A stretch of 44,002 bases of DNA from a virus. Of the stretch, positions 6,378 to 34,268 are shown piece after piece (position 1 is the first letter of the stretch; the number at the start of each line of letters is the position of its first letter). The notes under the pieces are model-generated. The model saw nothing but the letters and a program-made list of their open reading frames with translations. It was not told the origin of the DNA and ran no database searches. A program made the translations under genes and the position numbers. The stretch lies in UHGV virus genome UHGV-1377823; one strand, given 5' to 3'.

Positions 6378-6584
6378 ATGACAGGTAAATGCGGAGCAGA
6401 TTGTACTAACCGTTGCAGCATCGGGGCTTGCCCTAAAGCGGAGCCTAAGGATGAGTTTGATGGATTCATCCTGGACTTCGATGAAGAAGCTGTAGCAAAG
6501 CGTAATGCTGAGCGTGAGCAGGCTCAAACAGAGAGCGCCTACAAGCTCAGCGATGACGGTACGTGCGACGGTTGTACTATTTAG
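6378..6584 (+). CDS. hypothetical Cys-rich small protein
   Basis: ATG 6378 with an AAAGGTG SD. N-terminal CGADCTNRCSIGACP and C-terminal CDGCT cysteine clusters; acidic middle. Confidence 0.45.
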   Translation: MTGKCGADCTNRCSIGACPKAEPKDEFDGFILDFDEEAVAKRNAEREQAQTESAYKLSDDGTCDGCTI

Positions 6585-6637
6585 TAGCACTTAGGATTAA
6601 CCTCAGAAACGTCACGATTAACGTAGAGGGCAGCGAA

Positions 6638-9082
6638 TTGAAATTAGAAACCTTAGAAGAACGCACAGAACGTCAGCTCCAGCTTGAGCAGCAGTACCGT
6701 ACACGCAGCTTAGAGCGCAGCAAGAGCCTGGTGCAGAAAGCTCTGGACTCTGGTAGCCTCAGCACCCTGCCACCAGTGCAGCGCATGATTGCTGCCGCGT
6801 ACGACACTGTATGCGCAGGCATCAACAGCACTAAGCAGGAGAAGACTGCTGGTGTAGGCGCTAAGTACCGCGCGTTCCTGCGCTTAATTCCTACGGATGT
6901 ACTGGCTGTGCTGGCGCTGACAAAGTGCTTCGATTCGCTATTCTCTAACGTAGGCACTAACAGTGCCAGCTCGGCACAGGCTGTACTGTCCGGCTTAGGC
7001 CGTCAGGTTCAGGCTGAGCTACTGGCTGTGCAGCTTCAGGCTGTAGCCCCAGCGTACATGAACCGGGTGCATGAGTACCTGAAGGAGCGCAACACCACCA
7101 GCCCATCGCACATCCTCAAGACCCTGCGTGCTTCTGCTGAGAACGTGCATTACCAGCACGAGCCTTGGTCGAACTCGCAGTGCATCTCCGTGGGTAAGCT
7201 CTTGATGCAGGCAGTGTGGGATACAGGGCTGTTCGTATGGAGCAAGCGCGACCGCACGCAGTTGCAGTACCTAACCCCAGCTCCGGCGCTGGAGCAGGTC
7301 CTGTCTGAGCTGGTAGAGCACGCTGATACAGTGCAGCTGAAGCCACCGATGCTTATCCCGCCGCAGCCGCACGATACTATGTTCTCTGGCGGATACCTTA
7401 CGGACATTGATAGACGCGGTACTTACAGCAACTCCCAGATTCAGCGCAGTATGAAGCGCGAAGTAGCTGAGGCGTTCAAGCAAGCACCGGAGCTTCGGAG
7501 CGCTCTGAACCGTGCTCAGGAGGTTCCTTACCGCATTAACAAGACCATGCTGAGGCTGGTGCAGCAGGCCCGCGCCCTTGGCGTAAGCACAGGTATGCCC
7601 AGCAGCAACCCAGCACCTAAACCAGAGTGGCGCTTGGATGGTGTACCGAAGGAAGAGTACACCGAGCGCGAGCTTGAGGAGTTCCAGGAGTGGAAAATGC
7701 ATATGCGCCAGTGGTACGCGGATGAGCGTACTCGCGTAGGGCAGCTGCGTGCTCTGGTTACAACCGTAAGTATGTGCGAGGAGTTCAAAGATGAAACAGA
7801 GCTGTACTTCCCGACTTGTGTGGATTGGCGATACCGCCTGTACTTCAAGTCCAGCCTGCACCCCCAAGGTTCTGATTTGCAGAAAGCTCTGCTTGAATTC
7901 GGTCGCGGCAAGCCGCTTGGGGAGCGTGGGCTGTTCTGGCTTAAGGTGCATGTCGCCACTTGCTTTGGTTATGACAAAGCCTTATTCGAAGACCGTGCAG
8001 CTTGGGCTGATGCGAACTATGACGCAATTAGACGCCTGGTATCTGACCCATTTAATTCGGACGCTTTTAAACAGGCGGATAGCCCGTGGTGCTTCCTGGC
8101 AGCAGCAATCGACCTTGTTAATGCACTTAGCTCTGTGGAGCCGACAGAGTATGTATCGCACGTACCGGTCGCTATGGACGCTACAAACTCAGGCTCTCAA
8201 CATTACAGCGCAATGCTCCGGGACCCAATCGGCGGGCGATTAACGAACCTGTTCTGGGAAGGTAACGCAGAGAAAGCGGATATGTACATGGACGTGAAGG
8301 AGCGTACGGACTCTAAGGTAATCATGGACCTCACTGACCCAGAGCACGTAGTGCAGGCTACGTACTGGAGAGAGAACCAGATTACTCGGAGTATGACCAA
8401 GCGCCCCTGCATGACCTACGTGTACTCCGCTACTGTACGTAGCTGCTCTGAGTACATCCTTCTGGGTGCTAAGGACGAGGGGTATGAACCCACTGAGGAG
8501 TACAGCCTGTTTAAGCTCGCGGGGTACTTAGCTCCGCGTATGCGTGCTGCTGTAGAAGAGGCTAACCCTGCGGCTGCTGAGGCTATGCGCTTTGCTCAGC
8601 AGATTACGGGACGTGTACCGACTAAGCGGCACTTGCAGTGGAAGACTCCGCTGGGGGGTCTGGTAATTAACCGATACACGGAGTCAGATGAATGCCGGGT
8701 TAAAGTTCAGAGTATGAACCTGACGTACCTGCTCAGTTACAACCGTAACTATGAGCAGAACAATCGCCGTAAGGCTAAGTCTGGTATAGCTCCGAACTTC
8801 GTGCATTCACTGGATAGTACGCACCTGATGATGGTACTGAACGCCTTCGACGGTGATATCCTACCTATCCACGACTCTCTGGCTACGCATGCCTGTGATG
8901 TCGATGCAATGCACAAAGTAATCCGGGAGCAGTTCCTGAAGCTGTACACCGAGCACGACCCACTGCAAACGCTGGCTGACGCAGCGGTGGAGTGTGGTGC
9001 TGACCTGGAAGGTTTAGATATGCCTGAGAAAGGTACTCTGGACTTGACGCAAGTACTTGAATCACCTTTCTTTTTCTGCTAG
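6638..9082 (+). CDS. single-subunit DNA-dependent RNA polymerase (T7 RNAP family)
   Basis: Alignable to T7 RNAP along its length, for example C-terminal PEKGTLDLTQVLESPFFFC against T7 PAKGNLNLRDILESDFAFA, and motif DSLATHACD. The likely start is TTG 6638 with a GAGGG SD 7 nt upstream. The track's 6563 start overlaps the upstream gene. Confidence 0.93.
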   Translation: MKLETLEERTERQLQLEQQYRTRSLERSKSLVQKALDSGSLSTLPPVQRMIAAAYDTVCAGINSTKQEKTAGVGAKYRAFLRLIPTDVLAVLALTKCFDSLFSNVGTNSASSAQAVLSGLGRQVQAELLAVQLQAVAPAYMNRVHEYLKERNTTSPSHILKTLRASAENVHYQHEPWSNSQCISVGKLLMQAVWDTGLFVWSKRDRTQLQYLTPAPALEQVLSELVEHADTVQLKPPMLIPPQPHDTMFSGGYLTDIDRRGTYSNSQIQRSMKREVAEAFKQAPELRSALNRAQEVPYRINKTMLRLVQQARALGVSTGMPSSNPAPKPEWRLDGVPKEEYTERELEEFQEWKMHMRQWYADERTRVGQLRALVTTVSMCEEFKDETELYFPTCVDWRYRLYFKSSLHPQGSDLQKALLEFGRGKPLGERGLFWLKVHVATCFGYDKALFEDRAAWADANYDAIRRLVSDPFNSDAFKQADSPWCFLAAAIDLVNALSSVEPTEYVSHVPVAMDATNSGSQHYSAMLRDPIGGRLTNLFWEGNAEKADMYMDVKERTDSKVIMDLTDPEHVVQATYWRENQITRSMTKRPCMTYVYSATVRSCSEYILLGAKDEGYEPTEEYSLFKLAGYLAPRMRAAVEEANPAAAEAMRFAQQITGRVPTKRHLQWKTPLGGLVINRYTESDECRVKVQSMNLTYLLSYNRNYEQNNRRKAKSGIAPNFVHSLDSTHLMMVLNAFDGDILPIHDSLATHACDVDAMHKVIREQFLKLYTEHDPLQTLADAAVECGADLEGLDMPEKGTLDLTQVLESPFFFC

Positions 9083-24189: not shown

Positions 24190-25926
24190 ATGGCTTTCAG
24201 TTGGAGTGAGCTTAACTACCCGGCTGGCACAACCTCTGTACCCGTAGATATAGAGTACCTTGACAAGTCCTATATTTACGTGTACCTGGACGGTGTACTT
24301 ACTACGGACTACACCTGGAGCAGTGATACTGTTATTCAGTTTAACACTGCCCTGGCTGCTGCTACGGATGTACTGCTTGTACGCCGCACAGATAAAGAGT
24401 TCTTGTACATTATGTTCGCAGAGGGCGCTGCCTTTATCCGGGAGAACATTGATACTCAGAACAAGCAGTTCCTGCATCTTGCTCAGGAACTAACCGAGGG
24501 GCGCTCTATTGAGGGCTTCTACGGGGACTTGAGCATGAACGGGTTCCGCATCACCAATTTAGGCGCTGGGGTTAACCCTGGGGATGCAGTTAACAAGGGG
24601 CAGTTGGACGTAGTGGACCAGCGCGTAGTGAACCTGGAGCAGGCGTTTATTCAGGACACTACGAGTTATCCTTGGTACACTATTACTTCTACTGTAACAG
24701 ATACCCTGGACCCACCTTTCAACTTCACTAAAGCTGCGCTGTACATTAACGGCGTATGCCAGGTGCCTGGGTATAGTTATGAGGTTGTATCGAACCAGAT
24801 ACTACTGGCTGACCCTGTACCTATTGGCACCTTAATCTTCGCTCGTCTAGGTGAGGATGTTGGTACCGGGGACGAGTACGCTACGGCAGAGCAGTTAGCT
24901 GCTGCTATCAGTGCCGCCGAACTAGCGCACGTGCAGTTACAGAACAACATTGACCTAAAGCTAGACGCTACAGCTAACGCAGTATCAGCTACTAAGTTGC
25001 AGACTGCACGTACAGTGCAGACTAATTTAGCCAGTACTAGCCCATCTAGTTTCGACGGTACAGCTAATATCTCCCCCGGTGTTACAGGGATTCTGCCAAC
25101 CACTAACGGGGGCACGGGTAATGTCAACGGGACTGTAGCGGCATTAACTACTGCGCGTACCTTTCAGACAAACCTTGCCAGTACTAGCTCAGCTAGCTTT
25201 GATGGTTCCGCTAACGTAACTCCAGGGGTGACGGGTACTCTACCTATTGCTAACGGGGGCACAGGTAATACTACTGGGTTAGCTGCTACTGCTACGGCTC
25301 TCGCCACGGCCAGGACCTTCCAGACTAACTTAGCCAGCACTGCAAGCGCTAGCTTCAACGGCACTGCTAACGTTACGCCCGGCGTTACTGGTACACTGCC
25401 GTTGAGTAATGGGGGTACAGGGGGTACTACAGCAGTCTCTGCGCGTGATTCTCTAGGCGCTGCTGCATCTGGTAGTAACTCTGATATCACGGCCTTGACC
25501 GCGCTCACAGGCGGTATTACGGGGCTTGTTGGGGGTACTGCTGCTGCTGCTGGTGTAGTTGGGCAGATTCTGGAAGCCGTCAGCGGCTCCGCTGTAGCGT
25601 TAACTTCCGGAACCACTACTAACCTGACTAGCTTAGCGCTGCCTGCGGGTGAGTGGTTGGTTATGGGTAGCATCCGTATTGACAGTTCCGGGGGGAGTAT
25701 CACATCCCGAACCTTAGCTATTAATGACGTGTCCGCTACTACCCCAAGCGCTTGGTATCATGACTATATATCCCAAGCCAACACCGGGGCGGGGGTTAAC
25801 GTTTATGTCGTACCCCTTAGGTACTTTAGCTTGACAGGCACTACTACTCTCTACGCGGTAGCTAACGTCGAAGGTTCAGGGACTCTGACCGGACGGGGAT
25901 ACATTAGAGCGATACGTATACGTTAA
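24190..25926 (+). CDS. tail fibre protein with T7 gp17-like N-terminal tail-attachment domain
   Basis: N-terminal ~150 aa resemble T7 gp17 (DIEYLDKSYIYVYLDGVL...LLVRRTDKEF...). Central region has three tandem ~46-aa repeats; C-terminal domain is Gly/Thr-rich. Confidence 0.85.
   Translation: MAFSWSELNYPAGTTSVPVDIEYLDKSYIYVYLDGVLTTDYTWSSDTVIQFNTALAAATDVLLVRRTDKEFLYIMFAEGAAFIRENIDTQNKQFLHLAQELTEGRSIEGFYGDLSMNGFRITNLGAGVNPGDAVNKGQLDVVDQRVVNLEQAFIQDTTSYPWYTITSTVTDTLDPPFNFTKAALYINGVCQVPGYSYEVVSNQILLADPVPIGTLIFARLGEDVGTGDEYATAEQLAAAISAAELAHVQLQNNIDLKLDATANAVSATKLQTARTVQTNLASTSPSSFDGTANISPGVTGILPTTNGGTGNVNGTVAALTTARTFQTNLASTSSASFDGSANVTPGVTGTLPIANGGTGNTTGLAATATALATARTFQTNLASTASASFNGTANVTPGVTGTLPLSNGGTGGTTAVSARDSLGAAASGSNSDITALTALTGGITGLVGGTAAAAGVVGQILEAVSGSAVALTSGTTTNLTSLALPAGEWLVMGSIRIDSSGGSITSRTLAINDVSATTPSAWYHDYISQANTGAGVNVYVVPLRYFSLTGTTTLYAVANVEGSGTLTGRGYIRAIRIR
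25004..25430 (+). repeat. three tandem ~140-145 nt coding repeats inside tail fibre gene
   Basis: Repeat units start at 25004, 25149 and 25306 (TARTxQTNLASTSxxSFDGxANxxPGVTGxLPxxNGGTGN). Protein identity is ~80% but DNA identity is lower, through synonymous changes. They produce the spurious minus-strand ORF 25164-25703. Confidence 0.7.
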
Positions 25927-31170: not shown

Positions 31171-31290
31171 CCAGAGCTTCTAACCAGTCGCTCTAAGGAT
31201 AGCCTTGGGGATAGCTTAGGGAGTGCTAGTAGGGGATGCTGGTGTATACTTGCTCCCTAAAAATATTATACTTACTAATTGGAGATATCT

Positions 31291-31740
31291 ATGAACGTTA
31301 AATATGATACAAACTCCGCCAGCGGTCTGACCTGGTTAACTGGTAGACGCGCTGGTGCTGTAGCAGGAACCCTGAACGCTAAGGGCTACTGGGTTGTGCA
31401 GATGCAAGGCAAGAAGATGCAAGTGCATCGTATTATCTGGGAGATGCTGAATGGGCCTATACCAGATGATAAAGTGATTGACCACATAAACCAGAACCCT
31501 GCTGATAACCGCATTGAGAACCTGCGCCTAGCCAGTGTCAGCGATAACAACTGCAATGCTAGACGTGATAGCCGAGAGTATCCTCGTGGGGTATACTATA
31601 CAGGTTCATGCTGGCGCGGAGAGTTCTGGAAGGATGGCAAGCGCTATATGCGAAAGCACAGCTCATACGAAGTAATCTGCCAGTGGGTTCTCAGTGAACG
31701 CGCTAGGCTTCACGGGGAGTTTATCCCTGAGCAGGTGTAA
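31291..31740 (+). CDS. HNH homing endonuclease (HNH_3 + AP2-like)
   Basis: IDHINQNPADNRIENLRLASVSDNNCNA matches the HNH_3 motif. It is a paralogue of the HNH at 40064-40534. ATG 31291 has a GGAGA SD 5 nt upstream. Embedded in the GATAGC repeat array. Confidence 0.8.
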   Translation: MNVKYDTNSASGLTWLTGRRAGAVAGTLNAKGYWVVQMQGKKMQVHRIIWEMLNGPIPDDKVIDHINQNPADNRIENLRLASVSDNNCNARRDSREYPRGVYYTGSCWRGEFWKDGKRYMRKHSSYEVICQWVLSERARLHGEFIPEQV

Positions 31741-31773
31741 ACCTGTTAGTCAAAAATGATATACTTGTGTCAG

Positions 31774-31864
31774 CCTCACCCTCACCCTCACCGCCCCTCG
31801 TTTCCCCCATAGGGGGTGCCTCAGCCAGAACTATGGCCTGGGTGGGGTGGGGGCCTGGGCCTGT
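31774..31864 (+). repeat. (CCTCAC)x3 - CCCCCATAGGGGG palindrome - G-tract run (GGTGGGGTGGGGGCCTGGGCCTG)
   Basis: Three tandem CCTCAC hexamers at 31774-31791. A perfect 5+3+5 palindrome at 31804-31816. A run of five G-tracts at 31836-31864. The C-rich to G-rich strand switch gives G-quadruplex potential on both strands. Confidence 0.6.
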
Positions 31865-32198
31865 TCAGGGATAGCCTGGGGCCTCTACGAGGCTCTGGGA
31901 GCTTCTCTAAGCGCTTCTACCGGATAGCCTATAGGATTGCATAGGGATAGCCCTGTGATAGCCTTAGCGTGGCTCTGGTTGGCTCTGAGTGATAGCTCTG
32001 AGTAGCTCTGTGTGGTAGCGGAGGTGGGCGCAGGCTTACCTCTTTTCGTCCTCTATGTGTGCCTAGAGATAGCTTAGGGATAGCTGTAGAATCCTCACGT
32101 ACAGGCCGGAGATAGCTATTGGATAGCTCCAGTGTTAGCCGGTAATGGGTATAGCTAGAAGCTAGAGGTTGCATGATAAGGTATGCTGACTGTATGCA

Positions 32199-32227
32199 TT
32201 GACTAGGTATGACCATACTGCTACTAT
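32199..32227 (+). promoter_or_regulatory. candidate sigma70 promoter TTGACT-17-TACTAT
   Basis: -35 TTGACT at 32199-32204, a 17-nt spacer, and -10 TACTAT at 32222-32227, in an AT-rich region 170 nt upstream of the 32397 gene. Confidence 0.4.
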
Positions 32228-32396
32228 TGGTCATAGCTACTGTATATACTGAGTGCATACTGAGTATATAGCTATATAGAGTTGGTCACAGCTAATGGTA
32301 GTTGATGGGGTGTAACCATAGGTCACACCTCTGTAAGTACAGGGAATATAAGGAGTTGTTTGATTGAGTATAAATCAGTTAATAGAGGGTTTAAGT

Positions 32397-33095
32397 ATGA
32401 GTGTTCACAGCTACAGTACAGGTTTCGGTACACAGTCTGTTACGCTGAATGTACAGAGCCTGGTGGATACACTGGATAAATCCGGTTCGAGGCAGCAGCT
32501 GGTACAAACAGCGCTTAAGGCTGCCAGGGCACTGAGTAATGAACTGTACGGTGAAAGGAATATACTGAAGTGCATGCAGCTTGTGCTGGCTGCTATAGAT
32601 ACAGAGCGGTATCGTTCCGGTACAGAGGTTATCGATGCTGTACTGGATGCTGATACCGCGAAGTGGTTCAAAGCGTACCGGGTTACTCCGGCTCTGCAAG
32701 CACTGTTACCTGCTGGAGTATCAGCAGGGCGTTGTAAGGCTGCGGTTAACGCAGTGTTTAAGCTACAGGGCGGTACAGTAGCTGGTAGTAAGGCTGGTAA
32801 CGTTGTAGCTGCTGCGGATGGCTCTTACAGCGTTGATACAGTAGACCTCTGCGTAGAGTTATATGACCGAGGGTTAAGTGCCGAGGATATTCGGTTCATG
32901 CTACAGCATTATGGCTACAGTCTCACCGAGTGGGAGGTACTGGAGATACTTAATCGTGAGTGCGGCTACCTGGAGAAGTTTATCTATATAGGTAACGGAG
33001 AGGTAGTGCACGCTCAGTGCAGTAGCCTGGAAGGTCTGGAGCAGTGGCAGGACGTGGTGGTAGCTGCTGAGCAGCGTAAATGGCGGGGGATGTAA
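32397..33095 (+). CDS. hypothetical protein (232 aa)
   Basis: ATG with an AGAGGG SD 7 nt upstream. The track's 32364 start uses an alternative codon. No recognisable domain. Confidence 0.6.
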   Translation: MSVHSYSTGFGTQSVTLNVQSLVDTLDKSGSRQQLVQTALKAARALSNELYGERNILKCMQLVLAAIDTERYRSGTEVIDAVLDADTAKWFKAYRVTPALQALLPAGVSAGRCKAAVNAVFKLQGGTVAGSKAGNVVAAADGSYSVDTVDLCVELYDRGLSAEDIRFMLQHYGYSLTEWEVLEILNRECGYLEKFIYIGNGEVVHAQCSSLEGLEQWQDVVVAAEQRKWRGM

Positions 33096-33277
33096 TGCGA
33101 ACTTATGAGGTAGTAGACTTTGCGGTTGGTGCAGTAGATTATGAGTGGGGCTTGAATCTTTGTGGTAGAGAGTTTGATGAACTGACTGCTGCTGTAGAGC
33201 GTAAAGTCTCAGCGGGGCACACGCTCTGCGAGGATTTGATTCTGGATACATTGATGAAGCTTAGAGAGAGGGTTTAA
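33095..33277 (+). CDS. hypothetical small acidic protein (60 aa)
   Basis: ATG overlaps the upstream TAA (TAATG), so the two genes are translationally coupled. Confidence 0.45.
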   Translation: MRTYEVVDFAVGAVDYEWGLNLCGREFDELTAAVERKVSAGHTLCEDLILDTLMKLRERV

Positions 33278-33290
33278 GCGGTGGGAGAGA

Positions 33291-33323
33291 GGGAAGCGCT
33301 ATACAGCTAGTGCTTCCCTTTTT
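33291..33323 (+). terminator. rho-independent terminator
   Basis: GGGAAGC(GCT)-loop-(AGT)GCTTCCC stem followed by TTTTTG. Lies directly after the 33277 stop and before the early promoters. Confidence 0.65.
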
Positions 33324-33353
33324 GCTTAATAGAGAATTATTTTAAATTAAGTG

Positions 33354-33382
33354 TTGACATTCTGAATCAGGACTAGTAGAGT
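33354..33382 (+). promoter_or_regulatory. strong sigma70 early promoter (TTGACA-17-TAGAGT) with AT-rich UP element
   Basis: Consensus -35 TTGACA at 33354-33359, a 17-nt spacer, and -10 TAGAGT at 33377-33382. Upstream is AATAGAGAATTATTTTAAATTAAGTG (UP-element-like). Analogous to the T7 A1 promoter. Confidence 0.6.
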
Positions 33383-33578
33383 TAGACACATCGAGAGGCA
33401 AGGAGCCGCCCGGTAACGGGGAGTAGCGCCAGGGCATACGAAACCTGGATAATCGATAAGCAGGGTAAGAGATTAAGGTATTACTCCTCCGCGAAACCCT
33501 CGAAAGAGACCAGCTAGCGGGAACCTGGAAGAGGTTCGATAACTGGAAGTGACCGACATCACTGCGAAGAAACAGAGC

Positions 33579-33607
33579 TTGACAAGTACAGCAAAACGCA
33601 GTAACTT
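33579..33607 (+). promoter_or_regulatory. second sigma70 early promoter (TTGACA-17-TAACTT)
   Basis: Consensus -35 TTGACA at 33579-33584, a 17-nt spacer, and -10 TAACTT at 33602-33607. Confidence 0.5.
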
Positions 33608-33851
33608 AGATAGCAAGCAAGACAAGTTCACGAGTACGAAGTAAGTCGGGAGCCGTTACAAGGATTGTAGCAAGCGCGACTATAAATATCTGCGGGCTGG
33701 CGTGCTGAGAGACTGCGCCTTTATAGAAGAGTCTCGAACGTTGTAGAGCGTCCACGGTTATGCAGTGGGAATCTACACTAAGACACGCTGTACAAGGCGT
33801 GACCTTAGTTAAGCACCCTCTCTGTGAGGATGCAGAATTAAGGGGTATATC

Positions 33852-34022
33852 ATGAAGAAGATTAAAATTGGGTCATACGTACTGGTTAAGCACGAGTATA
33901 AATACACATCCCCTGTGAGCTTACATCGTACTCACACAGTAATCGACGTTCGCGGCGCAGAGTTACTTTTAAAGGGGTGCACTGATTATCTCCCGTTGAG
34001 CATGTTCGAACTCCACCGATAG
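33852..34022 (+). CDS. first early ORF, hypothetical (56 aa)
   Basis: ATG with an AAGGGG SD. Translation is MKKIKIGSYVLVKHEYKYTSPVSLHRTHTVIDVRGAELLLKGCTDYLPLSMFELHR. Below the ORF-track size cutoff. Confidence 0.4.
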   Translation: MKKIKIGSYVLVKHEYKYTSPVSLHRTHTVIDVRGAELLLKGCTDYLPLSMFELHR

Positions 34023-34031
34023 GGACGTGTT

Positions 34032-34268
34032 ATGGGCTACTTAAAACTCTGTAAGAAGCGCGAGCAGTCAATCAAAGCACTGGTAGCTGCTGCGCAGACT
34101 CCGGAAGGCTCTGAGGAGCGCAAGCGCCTTAAGAAGCTTCAGACCTTTGAGGCTACTGACCGGGCAAGACCGCAGGGCTTCAGTACGAACGTACGCAGTA
34201 TCGGTAATAAGACCGATAGCAAGATTAACAGCTACTACGCGGCTAAGAGCCGTACACCTAAATTCTAA
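34032..34268 (+). CDS. hypothetical basic early protein (78 aa)
   Basis: ATG ORF; Lys/Arg-rich. Confidence 0.5.
   Translation: MGYLKLCKKREQSIKALVAAAQTPEGSEERKRLKKLQTFEATDRARPQGFSTNVRSIGNKTDSKINSYYAAKSRTPKF

What the first reader, a model, noticed from the sequence alone, without database searches (positions are those of the whole stretch)
32199..33323. Insulated two-gene cassette with its own sigma70 promoter and terminator ahead of the main early promoters
A good sigma70 promoter (TTGACT-17-TACTAT) drives two translationally coupled genes (232 aa and 60 aa acidic, 32397-33277). A strong intrinsic terminator at 33291-33323 closes the unit immediately before the consensus early promoters. If the left genome end lies just upstream, these would be the first genes expressed from entering DNA, the position Ocr occupies in T7. 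That makes them prime candidates for anti-restriction or anti-defence functions. Neither protein has a recognisable domain.
Basis: partly seen in the sequence, partly recalled or inferred. Interest (0 to 1): 0.6.

Follow-up and report, generated by a model that had tools for sequence, protein, structure and literature searches.

The report
Variable first-entry gene cassette of a podophage
This is a real, self-contained early gene unit sitting about 420 bp from the end of the phage genome inferred to enter the cell first, in a slot where related phages carry unrelated genes; its function is unknown and nothing supports the proposed Ocr-like anti-restriction role.

Summary
The window is a rotated genome of a Koutsourovirus (phiKDA1-like, phiKMV/KP34-type podophage). 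By homology to phiKDA1 the left physical end is at about 31780. That places the promoter about 420 bp and the terminator about 1.5 kb from that end.

All the reported features exist:
- promoter-like site TTGACT-17-TACTAT (32199-32227);
- gene 1 (32397, or TTG 32364, to 33095);
- gene 2 (33095-33277, TAATG overlap);
- strong hairpin plus T-run (33290-33324);
- the best sigma70 match of the region 30 nt further on (33354-33382).

Comparison with 9 related genomes shows a recombination hot slot between the terminal repeat and a conserved terminator/early-promoter block. It holds at least 10 unrelated ORFan families.

Gene 1 and gene 2 are independent modules, not a fixed pair. Gene 1 is a tiny metagenome-only family under purifying selection. 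It has an HTH_23-like motif and a private, extremely conserved leader with clustered TGGTCAYAGCTA repeats. Gene 2 is a mildly acidic three-helix protein with no Ocr-like features.

Verdict: a genuine pre-early accessory cassette. The positional argument is supported. The anti-restriction function is untested and the DNA-mimic idea is not supported. Moderate interest.

The parts
31780..32035 (.). Left direct terminal repeat, present as a single collapsed copy in this rotated window; 31780 is the inferred left physical end of the genome.
   Evidence: Window 31780-32051 aligns to phiKDA1 nucleotides 1-284 at 84% identity. phiKDA1 1-267 is annotated 'left direct repeat'.
32199..32227 (+). Sigma70-type promoter of the cassette: TTGACT, 17-nt spacer, TACTAT, with a TG extension. 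The inferred transcription start is near 32235.
   Evidence: Consensus scan gives 9 of 12. The hexamer positions are conserved in diverged loci L005, L006, L010 and L012.
32204..32239 (.). Inverted repeat TAGGTATGACCA / TGGTCATAGCTA that brackets the -10 hexamer. It looks like an operator or a PeSL-type stem-loop.
   Evidence: the repeat finder pair I6: 12-nt arms, 92% complementary. The same architecture with changed arm sequence (GTGACCAT...ATGGTCAC) is seen in L010, and near-perfectly in L005 and L012.
32281..32334 (+). 54-nt ultraconserved leader element: GTTGGTCAYAGCT, 25 nt, TAGGTCACACCTC.
   Evidence: 52 of 54 positions are identical between the window and L005, although synonymous sites of gene 1 are saturated (pS 0.70). 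It is present upstream of gene 1 in the six homologous loci with enough upstream sequence; its 3' end is visible in the truncated L013. A second copy follows gene 1 in L005, L010 and L012. It occurs once in the window. No consensus RNA structure was found.
32146..32413 (.). Cluster of TGGTCAYAGCTA-like 12-mers at 32146, 32204 (minus strand), 32228, 32283 and 32402, plus the variant AGGTCACACCTC at 32320. The last copy lies in codons 2-6 of gene 1.
   Evidence: 5 of the 11 genome-wide matches with up to 2 mismatches, and all 4 matches with up to 1 mismatch, fall in this 268-bp stretch. The copies are conserved in the homologous loci.
32364..33095 (+). Gene 1: 243 aa from TTG 32364 (AAGGAG at 32350-32355), or 232 aa from ATG 32397. 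It is an ORFan protein with a basic N-terminal half (pI 9.4) and an acidic C-terminal half (pI 4.4).
   Evidence: ORF list. Six homologous clusters, all from metagenomes. No further homologues in a profile search of 1.84 billion representatives. dN/dS 0.07-0.2. Charge values. Start-codon comparison.
32823..32963 (+). HTH_23-like (homeodomain-like) three-helix motif of gene 1, residues 143-189 in the 232-aa numbering.
   Evidence: hhalign gives 91% probability against an alignment of Pfam-verified HTH_23 repeats. AlphaFold places helices at 148-157, 162-171 and 178-189, the only part of the model with pLDDT 64-71. Pfam itself gives no hit.
33095..33277 (+). Gene 2: 60-aa acidic protein predicted as a three-helix bundle. 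Its ATG overlaps the gene 1 stop codon (TAATG).
   Evidence: ORF and sequence. 87-95% identical copies sit behind different upstream genes in Entb_48, KKP 3828, SDFMU_EhYP, L007 and L009. Model pLDDT 76. No fold match.
33290..33324 (+). Intrinsic terminator: 12-bp stem, 6-nt loop and a TTTTT run.
   Evidence: Fold -27.8 kcal/mol, z = -3.9. Inverted repeat I10. Conserved in 9 of 9 related genomes, with one stem position varying as G.T, A-T or G-C (one T.T mismatch).
33354..33382 (+). Conserved main early promoter, TTGACA-17-TAGAGT. It is the downstream boundary of the variable slot.
   Evidence: Best sigma70 match in the region, 10 of 12. The TTGACATTCTG block is near-invariant (one substitution in Entb_48) in the 9 genomes.

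Best explanation
The region is a host-RNA-polymerase (sigma70) transcription unit. It occupies a hypervariable 'pre-early' slot between the left terminal repeat and the conserved terminator/main-early-promoter block of a Koutsourovirus genome.

Shown:
- The position relative to the genome end.
- The mosaic nature of the slot.
- Both genes being real but separately mobile ORFans.
- The conserved terminator.
- The positional conservation of the promoter.

Inferred:
- In T7-type podophages the left end enters first. On that analogy this unit would be transcribed before, and independently of, the main early operon.
- The terminator would prevent read-through from occluding the main promoter 30 nt downstream.
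- Gene 1 arrives as a self-contained module. It has a promoter whose -10 is bracketed by an inverted repeat, a 54-nt ultraconserved leader, and five or six TGGTCAYAGCTA-type sites from about -30 to just inside the coding region. Its protein carries an HTH_23-like motif. The most likely logic is that the protein binds these sites and represses its own promoter after a short burst of synthesis.
- Gene 2 is an acidic three-helix protein. Here it is translated by coupling to gene 1. It most likely acts by binding a host protein.
- The cargo is best read as accessory host-takeover or counter-defence genes of unknown target, not as an Ocr-type DNA mimic.
For: Genome identity and end:
- Matches to phiKDA1, Entb_48, SDFMU_Pec and KKP 3828 (Koutsourovirus), with window 31780 aligned to phiKDA1 nucleotide 1.
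- The phage RNA polymerase gene lies far downstream in genome order, after the DNA-metabolism block (window 6563-9082). Early genes therefore depend on host RNA polymerase, as in phiKMV-type phages.

Slot variability:
- 32133-33094 has no DNA match in the four GenBank relatives compared by blastn, while both flanks do.
- At least 10 unrelated gene families occupy the slot in 9 genomes. All have no assigned function in Pfam or PHROGs.

Module independence:
- Gene 2 follows five different upstream contexts.
- Gene 1 is followed by other genes in L005, L010, L011, L012 and L013.

Promoter, terminator and leader:
- Promoter position is conserved.
- The terminator is conserved in all 9 genomes.
- The leader element is 52/54 identical across saturated synonymous divergence.
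- The leader occurs only with gene 1.
- The 12-mers are clustered.
- There is no supported RNA structure: consensus -5.4 kcal/mol with negligible covariation.

HTH motif:
- hhalign 91% probability plus matching AlphaFold helices.
Against: - No transcript data exist. The promoter is only a 9/12 match and at chance level on its own.
- The HTH assignment fails Pfam's threshold. It rests on weak repeated matches to proteins that were found through the same profile.
- The putative recognition helix (SLTEWEVLEILNRE) and the whole C-terminal half are acidic (pI 4.4). That is unusual for a DNA-binding HTH.
- Binding of the 12-mers by gene 1 is inferred only from co-occurrence.
- Entry polarity and timing are extrapolated from T7 and are not known for this genus.
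- The gene 1 structure model is poor (pLDDT 44.8).
Confidence: 0.6

Rival explanations
1. Ocr-like anti-restriction. Gene 2, or both genes, block restriction or BREX as a DNA mimic made first from the entering DNA.
For: - The unit sits in the first-entering position, upstream of the early promoters.
- The slot is hypervariable.
- Gene 2 is acidic, pI 4.6.
Against: - The net charge is only -5 over 60 residues.
- The model is an ordinary three-helix bundle.
- No match in PDB or BFVD reaches E <= 0.001.
- There is no Pfam, PHROGs or NCBIfam hit.
- Several relatives lack gene 2 altogether (phiKDA1, SDFMU_Pec).
Confidence: 0.1
2. Entry 'winch'. The main role of the unit is its promoter. If only the first several hundred base pairs enter unaided, as in T7, transcription from about 420 bp would pull in the DNA up to the main early promoter at about 1575 bp. 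The cargo genes would then be exchangeable passengers.
For: - Every slot variant brings an AT-rich leader of its own before the first gene; the consensus scan found a sigma70-like match in 7 of the 9.
- The main early promoter lies roughly 1.4-1.8 kb beyond the repeat in all relatives.
- In T7 the genome is clamped at about 850 bp until transcription proceeds (PMC8954989).
Against: - A conserved strong terminator sits just before the main promoter. It would release the polymerase about 30 bp short of it.
- No entry data exist for this genus.
- Purifying selection on gene 1 and gene 2 shows that the cargo matters.
Confidence: 0.2
3. The conserved leader and repeats are not an operator. They are cassette-boundary sequences, like the promoter-early stem-loops (PeSLs) of T4-type phages, that mediate recombinational shuffling. 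Alternatively they act as an RNA leader controlling stability or translation.
For: - The element flanks gene 1 on both sides in L005, L010 and L012. The downstream copy starts right at the stop codon, exactly where gene 2 is joined in the window.
- A stem-loop overlaps the -10 hexamer, as described for PeSLs (PMC2839356).
- Four of the copies lie in the transcript, and one lies just after the start codon.
Against: - The element is found only with gene 1, not at other slot junctions.
- No hits were found in IMG/VR. JGI metagenomes and GTDB genomes gave one chance hit each, the same Verrucomicrobia MAG contig; the JGI copy was inspected and lies in a GC-rich coding region.
- 54 nt of near-invariance is more than homology-driven recombination requires.
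- RNAalifold finds no supported structure, and the hairpins have weak z-scores.
Confidence: 0.25
4. The cassette is not early. It is expressed late by read-through of phage-polymerase transcripts across concatemer junctions from the tailspike/HNH genes.
For: - In the rotated window the structural genes and an HNH gene lie directly upstream.
- No terminator was detected between 31740 and 32199.
Against: - A sigma70 promoter is conserved in position directly upstream.
- The unit is on the far side of the terminal repeat from the late genes.
- The element resembling a phage-polymerase promoter has no other copy in the genome.
Confidence: 0.08

Closest known systems
T7 gene 0.3 (Ocr) and the class I early region of T7-like phages
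   Same: - Left-end location.
- Transcription by host RNA polymerase.
- Small acidic products.
- A region that varies between relatives.
   Different: - The cassette lies upstream of the main early promoters and is terminated before them, rather than being the first gene of the main early transcript.
- There is no sequence, charge or fold resemblance to Ocr.
PeSL mobile regulatory cassettes and ORFans in hyperplastic regions of T4-type phages (PMC2839356, PMC4122927)
   Same: - Sigma70 promoter with an overlapping stem-loop.
- ORFan cargo.
- Repeated boundary sequence on both sides of the gene in some genomes.
- Replacement by unrelated genes in close relatives.
   Different: - Here there is a single slot at the genome end of a podophage.
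- The repeat is a 54-nt element specific to one gene family rather than a genome-wide promoter motif.
- Its stem-loop has no terminator features.
T5 pre-early (first-step-transfer) genes
   Same: A small set of genes on the first-entering DNA segment, next to the terminal repeat. They are expressed by host polymerase ahead of the rest of the genome.
   Different: - T5 pre-early genes are conserved and needed for second-step transfer. This slot's content is dispensable, because relatives lack it.
- No two-step transfer is known for this genus.
Lambdoid 'morons' (independent promoter-gene-terminator insertions)
   Same: An autonomous transcription unit with its own promoter and terminator, inserted between conserved blocks, with patchy distribution.
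   Different: - Morons are typically expressed from prophages and benefit the lysogen. This is a virulent phage.
- The terminator belongs to the conserved backbone, not to the insert.
HTH_23 / homeodomain-like DNA-binding domains (IS-transposase N-terminal, small-terminase type)
   Same: The motif 'YS-x-[DE]-x-x-D-x-x-[VI]-E-L-[YF]-x-x-G-[LM]-S-x-x-[DE]-I-...-W' and three helices are in register.
   Different: - It scores below Pfam thresholds.
- The third helix is acidic.
- It is embedded in an otherwise unmatched 232-aa protein.

Membership tests
Ocr / DNA-mimic anti-restriction proteins | Sequence homology to Ocr (the Pfam ocr family) or to another known mimic. | tested here: not met
   No Pfam, PHROGs or NCBIfam hit for either protein at E <= 1.
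Ocr / DNA-mimic anti-restriction proteins | Very high density of surface negative charge that imitates the DNA backbone. | tested here: not met
   Gene 2 has 12 acidic and 7 basic residues, net -5, pI 4.6. Gene 1 has net -5 over 232 aa.
Ocr / DNA-mimic anti-restriction proteins | Fold resemblance to a known mimic. | tested here: not met
   Foldseek of the gene 2 model (pLDDT 76) against PDB and BFVD gave nothing at E <= 0.001.
Ocr / DNA-mimic anti-restriction proteins | Protects phage from type I R-M or BREX. | not testable with these tools
   This needs plating assays.
Intrinsic (Rho-independent) terminator | GC-rich hairpin immediately followed by a U-run. | tested here: met
   12-bp stem, 6-nt loop and TTTTT; -27.8 kcal/mol, z = -3.9.
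Intrinsic (Rho-independent) terminator | Conservation of the pairing across relatives. | tested here: met
   Present in 9 of 9 genomes. One stem position varies as G.T, A-T or G-C, with one T.T mismatch in KKP 3828.
Sigma70 promoter | -35 and -10 hexamers with 16-18 nt spacing. | tested here: met
   TTGACT-17-TACTAT, 9 of 12, TG-extended. This is at chance level on its own.
Sigma70 promoter | Hexamers retained in position in diverged orthologous loci. | tested here: met
   TAGACA-17-TATAAT or CATAAT at the same alignment columns in L005, L010 and L012.
Sigma70 promoter | Mapped, rifampicin-sensitive transcription start. | not testable with these tools
   No transcript data are available.
HTH_23 / homeodomain-like DNA-binding domain | Passes the Pfam gathering score. 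| tested here: not met
   No Pfam hit for full-length gene 1 (E <= 1) or for the C-terminal 98 residues among HTH families (E <= 10).
HTH_23 / homeodomain-like DNA-binding domain | Profile-profile similarity and a three-helix architecture in register. | tested here: inconclusive
   hhalign 91% probability for residues 143-181. AlphaFold helices at 148-157, 162-171 and 178-189 with pLDDT 64-71. However, the comparison set was chosen from hits of the same profile.
HTH_23 / homeodomain-like DNA-binding domain | Sequence-specific DNA binding. | not testable with these tools
   Only co-occurrence with the 12-mer array is available. The acidic third helix argues for caution.
PeSL-type mobile regulatory cassette | Sigma70 promoter combined with a stem-loop between or over the hexamers. 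| tested here: met
   A 12-nt inverted repeat brackets the -10 hexamer. The same layout is seen in L010, and near-perfectly in L005 and L012.
PeSL-type mobile regulatory cassette | The same motif repeated at many ORFan boundaries in the genome, acting as a recombination substrate. | tested here: not met
   The element and the 12-mers occur only in this cassette in the window, and only next to gene 1 in other loci.
Single-subunit (phage) RNA polymerase promoter | Conserved motif of about 20 nt repeated before late or middle genes. | tested here: not met
   TAGGTCACACCTCTG resembles the SP6 promoter core, by my own recall of that sequence. No other copy exists in the window with up to 3 mismatches beyond chance. 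No matching repeat family was found.

The most novel reading that the evidence does not exclude
Gene 1 and its leader form a self-contained, self-regulating mobile module. A previously unseen DNA-binding protein (HTH_23-like, or acting through its basic N-terminal half) recognises the TGGTCAYAGCTA array around its own promoter. The whole unit hops between the first-entry slots of at least two podophage lineages: the Enterobacter Koutsouroviruses, and an E. coli/Salmonella lineage whose early region matches phages S.Kent 1-2-1 and ECO104 4-5-2. The same protein may act on host or rival-phage DNA immediately after entry. The slot promoter may also serve as the entry promoter that hauls the main early promoter into the cell.
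Probability: 0.3. Interest if true: 0.55.

Novelty: new member of a known kind. Interest (0 to 1): 0.42.

Why it matters
Slots of this kind are plausible places to look for new counter-defence and host-takeover proteins. Their defining features are first entry, an own promoter, insulation from the backbone, and different ORFans in each close relative.

This work gives a precise map of the slot:
- It lies between the terminal repeat (and the CTTACCTCTTTTG motif that follows it) and the conserved terminator/promoter block.
- It comes with a catalogue of at least 10 ORFan families across 9 genomes, which gives a compact screening set.
- Its boundaries could be tried as an insertion site for payload genes in Enterobacter phages considered for therapy.

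The 54-nt leader is almost invariant while the adjacent gene has saturated synonymous change. It is a clear candidate regulatory element that can be tested directly with a reporter and a purified protein.

Tried and rejected
Protein searches that gave nothing:
- Pfam, PHROGs, NCBIfam and PADLOC gave nothing usable for either protein. The only hits were a PHROG tail-fibre match at E = 0.19 and PADLOC PDC-S63 at E = 0.003 and 15 bits; both were dismissed as noise.
- tblastn of gene 1 against 50,697 phage records found no match.
- A profile search of 1.84 billion representatives found only the family itself plus repeat-inflated hits. P0016 and P0017 are low-complexity repeat proteins and were rejected. 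P0015 and P0018 gave the HTH lead.
- A PDB sequence search found only a chance methyltransferase hit at E = 0.8.

Structure work:
- The gene 1 AlphaFold model was too poor (pLDDT 44.8) to justify a fold search.
- Gene 2 fold searches in PDB and BFVD were empty.

Ideas about the leader element, tested and dropped:
- Rfam on 31700-34100 gave no hit.
- RNase III site: the stems are only 7-10 bp and the z-scores weak.
- Conserved RNA structure: not supported by RNAalifold.
- Resident phage-polymerase promoter: the element is a single copy.
- Alternative-sigma or CRP-type sites: inspection of the sequence showed that the spacings do not fit (my own reading, no tool).

Collection scans:
- Scans for the element in IMG/VR, JGI metagenomes and GTDB genomes gave either nothing or a chance hit on a Verrucomicrobia MAG contig.
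- Gene 2 relatives were not found in IMG/VR.

Slot partner genes in relatives all lack any assigned function.
Full report
**What the window is.**
- The window is a complete, rotated genome of about 44 kb from a Koutsourovirus (Autographiviridae, Slopekvirinae). Its closest records are Enterobacter phages Entb_48 and phiKDA1, at about 87-89% identity over 77-82% of a 25-kb query.
- It encodes a single-subunit RNA polymerase at 6563-9082 (Pfam RNA_pol, E = 1e-90). In genome order this lies after the early and DNA-metabolism genes, as in phiKMV-type phages. Early genes must therefore be read by host polymerase.
- Window 31780-32051 aligns to nucleotides 1-284 of phiKDA1, whose first 267 nt are annotated as the left direct repeat.
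- The left physical end is therefore about 31780. The finding lies 420-1545 bp from it.

**Checking the observation.**
- The promoter TTGACT-17-TACTAT (32199-32227) is a 9/12 match with a TG extension. Such matches are at chance frequency in this region: 11 found against 7.3 +/- 3.2 expected.
- What makes the promoter credible is comparison. In the loci that carry diverged homologues of gene 1, the hexamers sit in the same alignment columns but read TAGACA-17-TATAAT (L010, L012) or CATAAT (L005).
- Gene 1 (32397-33095) and gene 2 (33095-33277) overlap as TAATG.
- The hairpin at 33290-33319 plus TTTTT folds at -27.8 kcal/mol, z = -3.9. It is present in all nine related genomes, and one stem position varies as G.T, A-T or G-C, with a T.T mismatch in KKP 3828.
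- Thirty nucleotides further on is the best sigma70 match of the region, TTGACA-17-TAGAGT. The TTGACATTCTG block is near-invariant in the nine genomes, with one substitution in Entb_48.

**The slot is a recombination hot spot.**
- blastn against four GenBank relatives shows conserved DNA up to about 32116-32132 and again from 33288. Nothing matches for 32133-33094.
- I delimited the slot in nine genomes using the terminal-repeat anchor and the terminator/promoter anchor. It is 1.2-1.75 kb long and holds at least ten unrelated gene families.
- The first position is taken by one of three or four unrelated proteins of 180-240 aa. Each has an AT-rich leader of its own, and the consensus scan found a sigma70-like match in 7 of the 9.
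- None of these proteins has an assigned function in Pfam or PHROGs.
- The upstream edge of the conserved terminator is exactly where sequence similarity resumes.

**The two genes are independent modules.**
- Gene 2 is 87-95% identical in Entb_48, KKP 3828, SDFMU_EhYP and several metagenomic genomes. There it follows different genes and often has its own leader and ribosome-binding site.
- In the two GenBank relatives that match at DNA level, Entb_48 and KKP 3828, homology to the window begins precisely at its ATG.
- Gene 1 has only six homologous clusters in 5.8 billion proteins, all from metagenomes. A full HMMER profile search of 1.84 billion representatives adds none.
- Where the context is visible, gene 1 is again in a left-end slot. 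In L006 this is the same phage type. L005 is a second lineage whose early region resembles E. coli and Salmonella phages only from the main early promoter onward. L010 and L012 carry the same leader and slot layout as L005.
- In L005, L010, L011, L012 and L013, gene 1 is followed by other small genes, not by gene 2.

**Gene 1.**
- The family is under purifying selection: dN/dS is 0.07-0.2, and synonymous sites are saturated between the window and L005 (pS 0.70).
- The N-terminal half is basic (pI 9.4) and the C-terminal half acidic (pI 4.4).
- The profile's only non-trivial outside hits were two proteins made of tandem HTH_23 repeats (Pfam E = 2e-83 and 1e-48). They matched repeatedly, in one register, to residues about 143-180.
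- hhalign of the family against an alignment of those repeats gives 91% probability.
- The only moderately confident part of the AlphaFold model is three helices at 148-189.
- I regard an HTH_23-like motif as probable but unproven. Pfam's own threshold is not met, and the third helix is acidic.
- A TTG at 32364, 8 nt after AAGGAG (AAAGGG in L005, L010 and L012), is present in the six loci with full upstream sequence. The 11-codon extension stays open, and three of the five changed codons are synonymous. The protein may therefore be 243 aa.

**The private leader of gene 1.**
- Between promoter and start codon lies a 54-nt element: GTTGGTCAYAGCT, 25 nt, TAGGTCACACCTC (32281-32334).
- It is 52/54 identical between the window and L005, despite the saturated coding divergence.
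- It precedes gene 1 in the six homologous loci with enough upstream sequence, and its 3' end is visible in the truncated L013. A second copy begins right after the gene 1 stop codon in L005, L010 and L012.
- The -10 hexamer is bracketed by a 12-nt inverted repeat. In L010 the repeat is retained with different arm sequence, and near-perfectly in L005 and L012.
- TGGTCAYAGCTA-like 12-mers occur at 32146, 32204 (minus strand), 32228, 32283 and 32402, plus a variant at 32320. All four genome-wide matches with at most one mismatch lie in this stretch. The last copy encodes the invariant G/V-H-S-Y at the start of the protein.
- The element is not a repeated phage-polymerase promoter.
- It has no Rfam match and no supported consensus RNA fold.
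- It was not found elsewhere in IMG/VR. JGI metagenomes and GTDB genomes gave only a chance hit on a Verrucomicrobia MAG contig.
- Two invariant blocks at fixed spacing, together with an inverted copy upstream of the transcription start, fit protein binding to DNA better than an RNA structure.
- The simplest candidate for the binding protein is the module's own product. This is an inference from co-occurrence, not a demonstrated interaction.

**Gene 2.**
- It is a 60-aa protein with pI 4.6 and net charge -5.
- It is predicted as a three-helix bundle with pLDDT 76.
- Foldseek against PDB and BFVD returns nothing at E <= 0.001.
- It does not look like Ocr or any catalogued mimic.

**How it most likely works.**
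- Shown: position, insulation, mosaicism and selection on the genes.
- Inferred from T7 biology: the left end enters first and host polymerase acts on it. In T7 the genome is held at about 850 bp until transcription proceeds (PMC8954989). On this analogy the cassette would be transcribed ahead of the main early operon.
- The conserved terminator would stop that transcription from running over the main promoter.
- Gene 1 probably shuts its own promoter after a burst. Gene 2 is made by coupled translation.
- The cargo is best described as accessory early genes of unknown target.
- Rivals are: an Ocr-like function (little support); the promoter acting chiefly as an entry 'winch' (attractive, but the terminator sits awkwardly); a PeSL-like recombination or RNA-leader role for the element (PMC2839356); and late read-through expression.

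**Comparison and verdict.**
- The architecture belongs to a known kind: autonomous promoter-ORFan-terminator units in hyperplastic early regions. Comparable cases are morons, T4-type PeSL cassettes, and the T5 and T7 early genes.
- The proteins themselves are new families. The gene-specific ultraconserved leader with its repeat array is the one unusual feature.
- Interest is moderate.

Noticed in passing
window 31870-32128: There is an array of nine same-strand GATAGCY heptamers in 260 bp, spanning the terminal repeat and the DNA just inside it. About 27 copies occur on both strands in the remaining 43.7 kb. The array is conserved in relatives and is reminiscent, from my own recall, of the short repeat arrays next to the T7 terminal repeat.
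   Followed up: partly
window 32036-32049; also L005 301-314 and 1518-1531, L002, L009: The motif CTTACCTCTTTTG sits immediately after the point where the phiKDA1-defined terminal repeat ends. One or two copies are present in every relative with this region in the record, and in the second phage lineage. Its function is unknown; it may be a processing or packaging boundary.
   Followed up: no
window 33383-33851: An ORF-free leader of about 470 nt, 79-93% conserved in patches among relatives, lies between the main early promoter and the first early ORF. It contains a second TTGACA at 33580 and an internal 29-nt direct repeat (33576/33616). There is no Rfam match. It could hold a processing site or a small RNA.
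   Followed up: partly
window 31279-31740: A free-standing HNH_3 endonuclease gene (E = 1e-19) lies between the tailspike gene and the right genome end. It is absent at the same place in the near-identical metagenomic contig L006.
   Followed up: partly
window 25003-25425: Three diverged repeats of about 120 nt (66-73% identity) lie inside the T7-tail-fibre-like gene 24190-25926. The gene also has a YadA-stalk-like match below the Pfam cut-off.
   Followed up: no
L009 3106-3687, L002 862-1491, L004 131-676 (slot first genes of relatives): The commonest first-position protein family of the slot has chimeric relatives. They share only a basic N-terminal module of about 40 aa (RKQRRVGGKKQNYW) joined to unrelated C-terminal parts, which suggests domain shuffling within the slot.
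   Followed up: partly
window 33066-33095 and all gene 1 homologues: The extreme C-terminus EQRKWRGM of gene 1 is invariant at protein level, with synonymous variation, in all seven sequences. Its codons (TGG-[AC]GG-GG[AG]-ATG) also form the ribosome-binding site used by gene 2 in the window.
   Followed up: no
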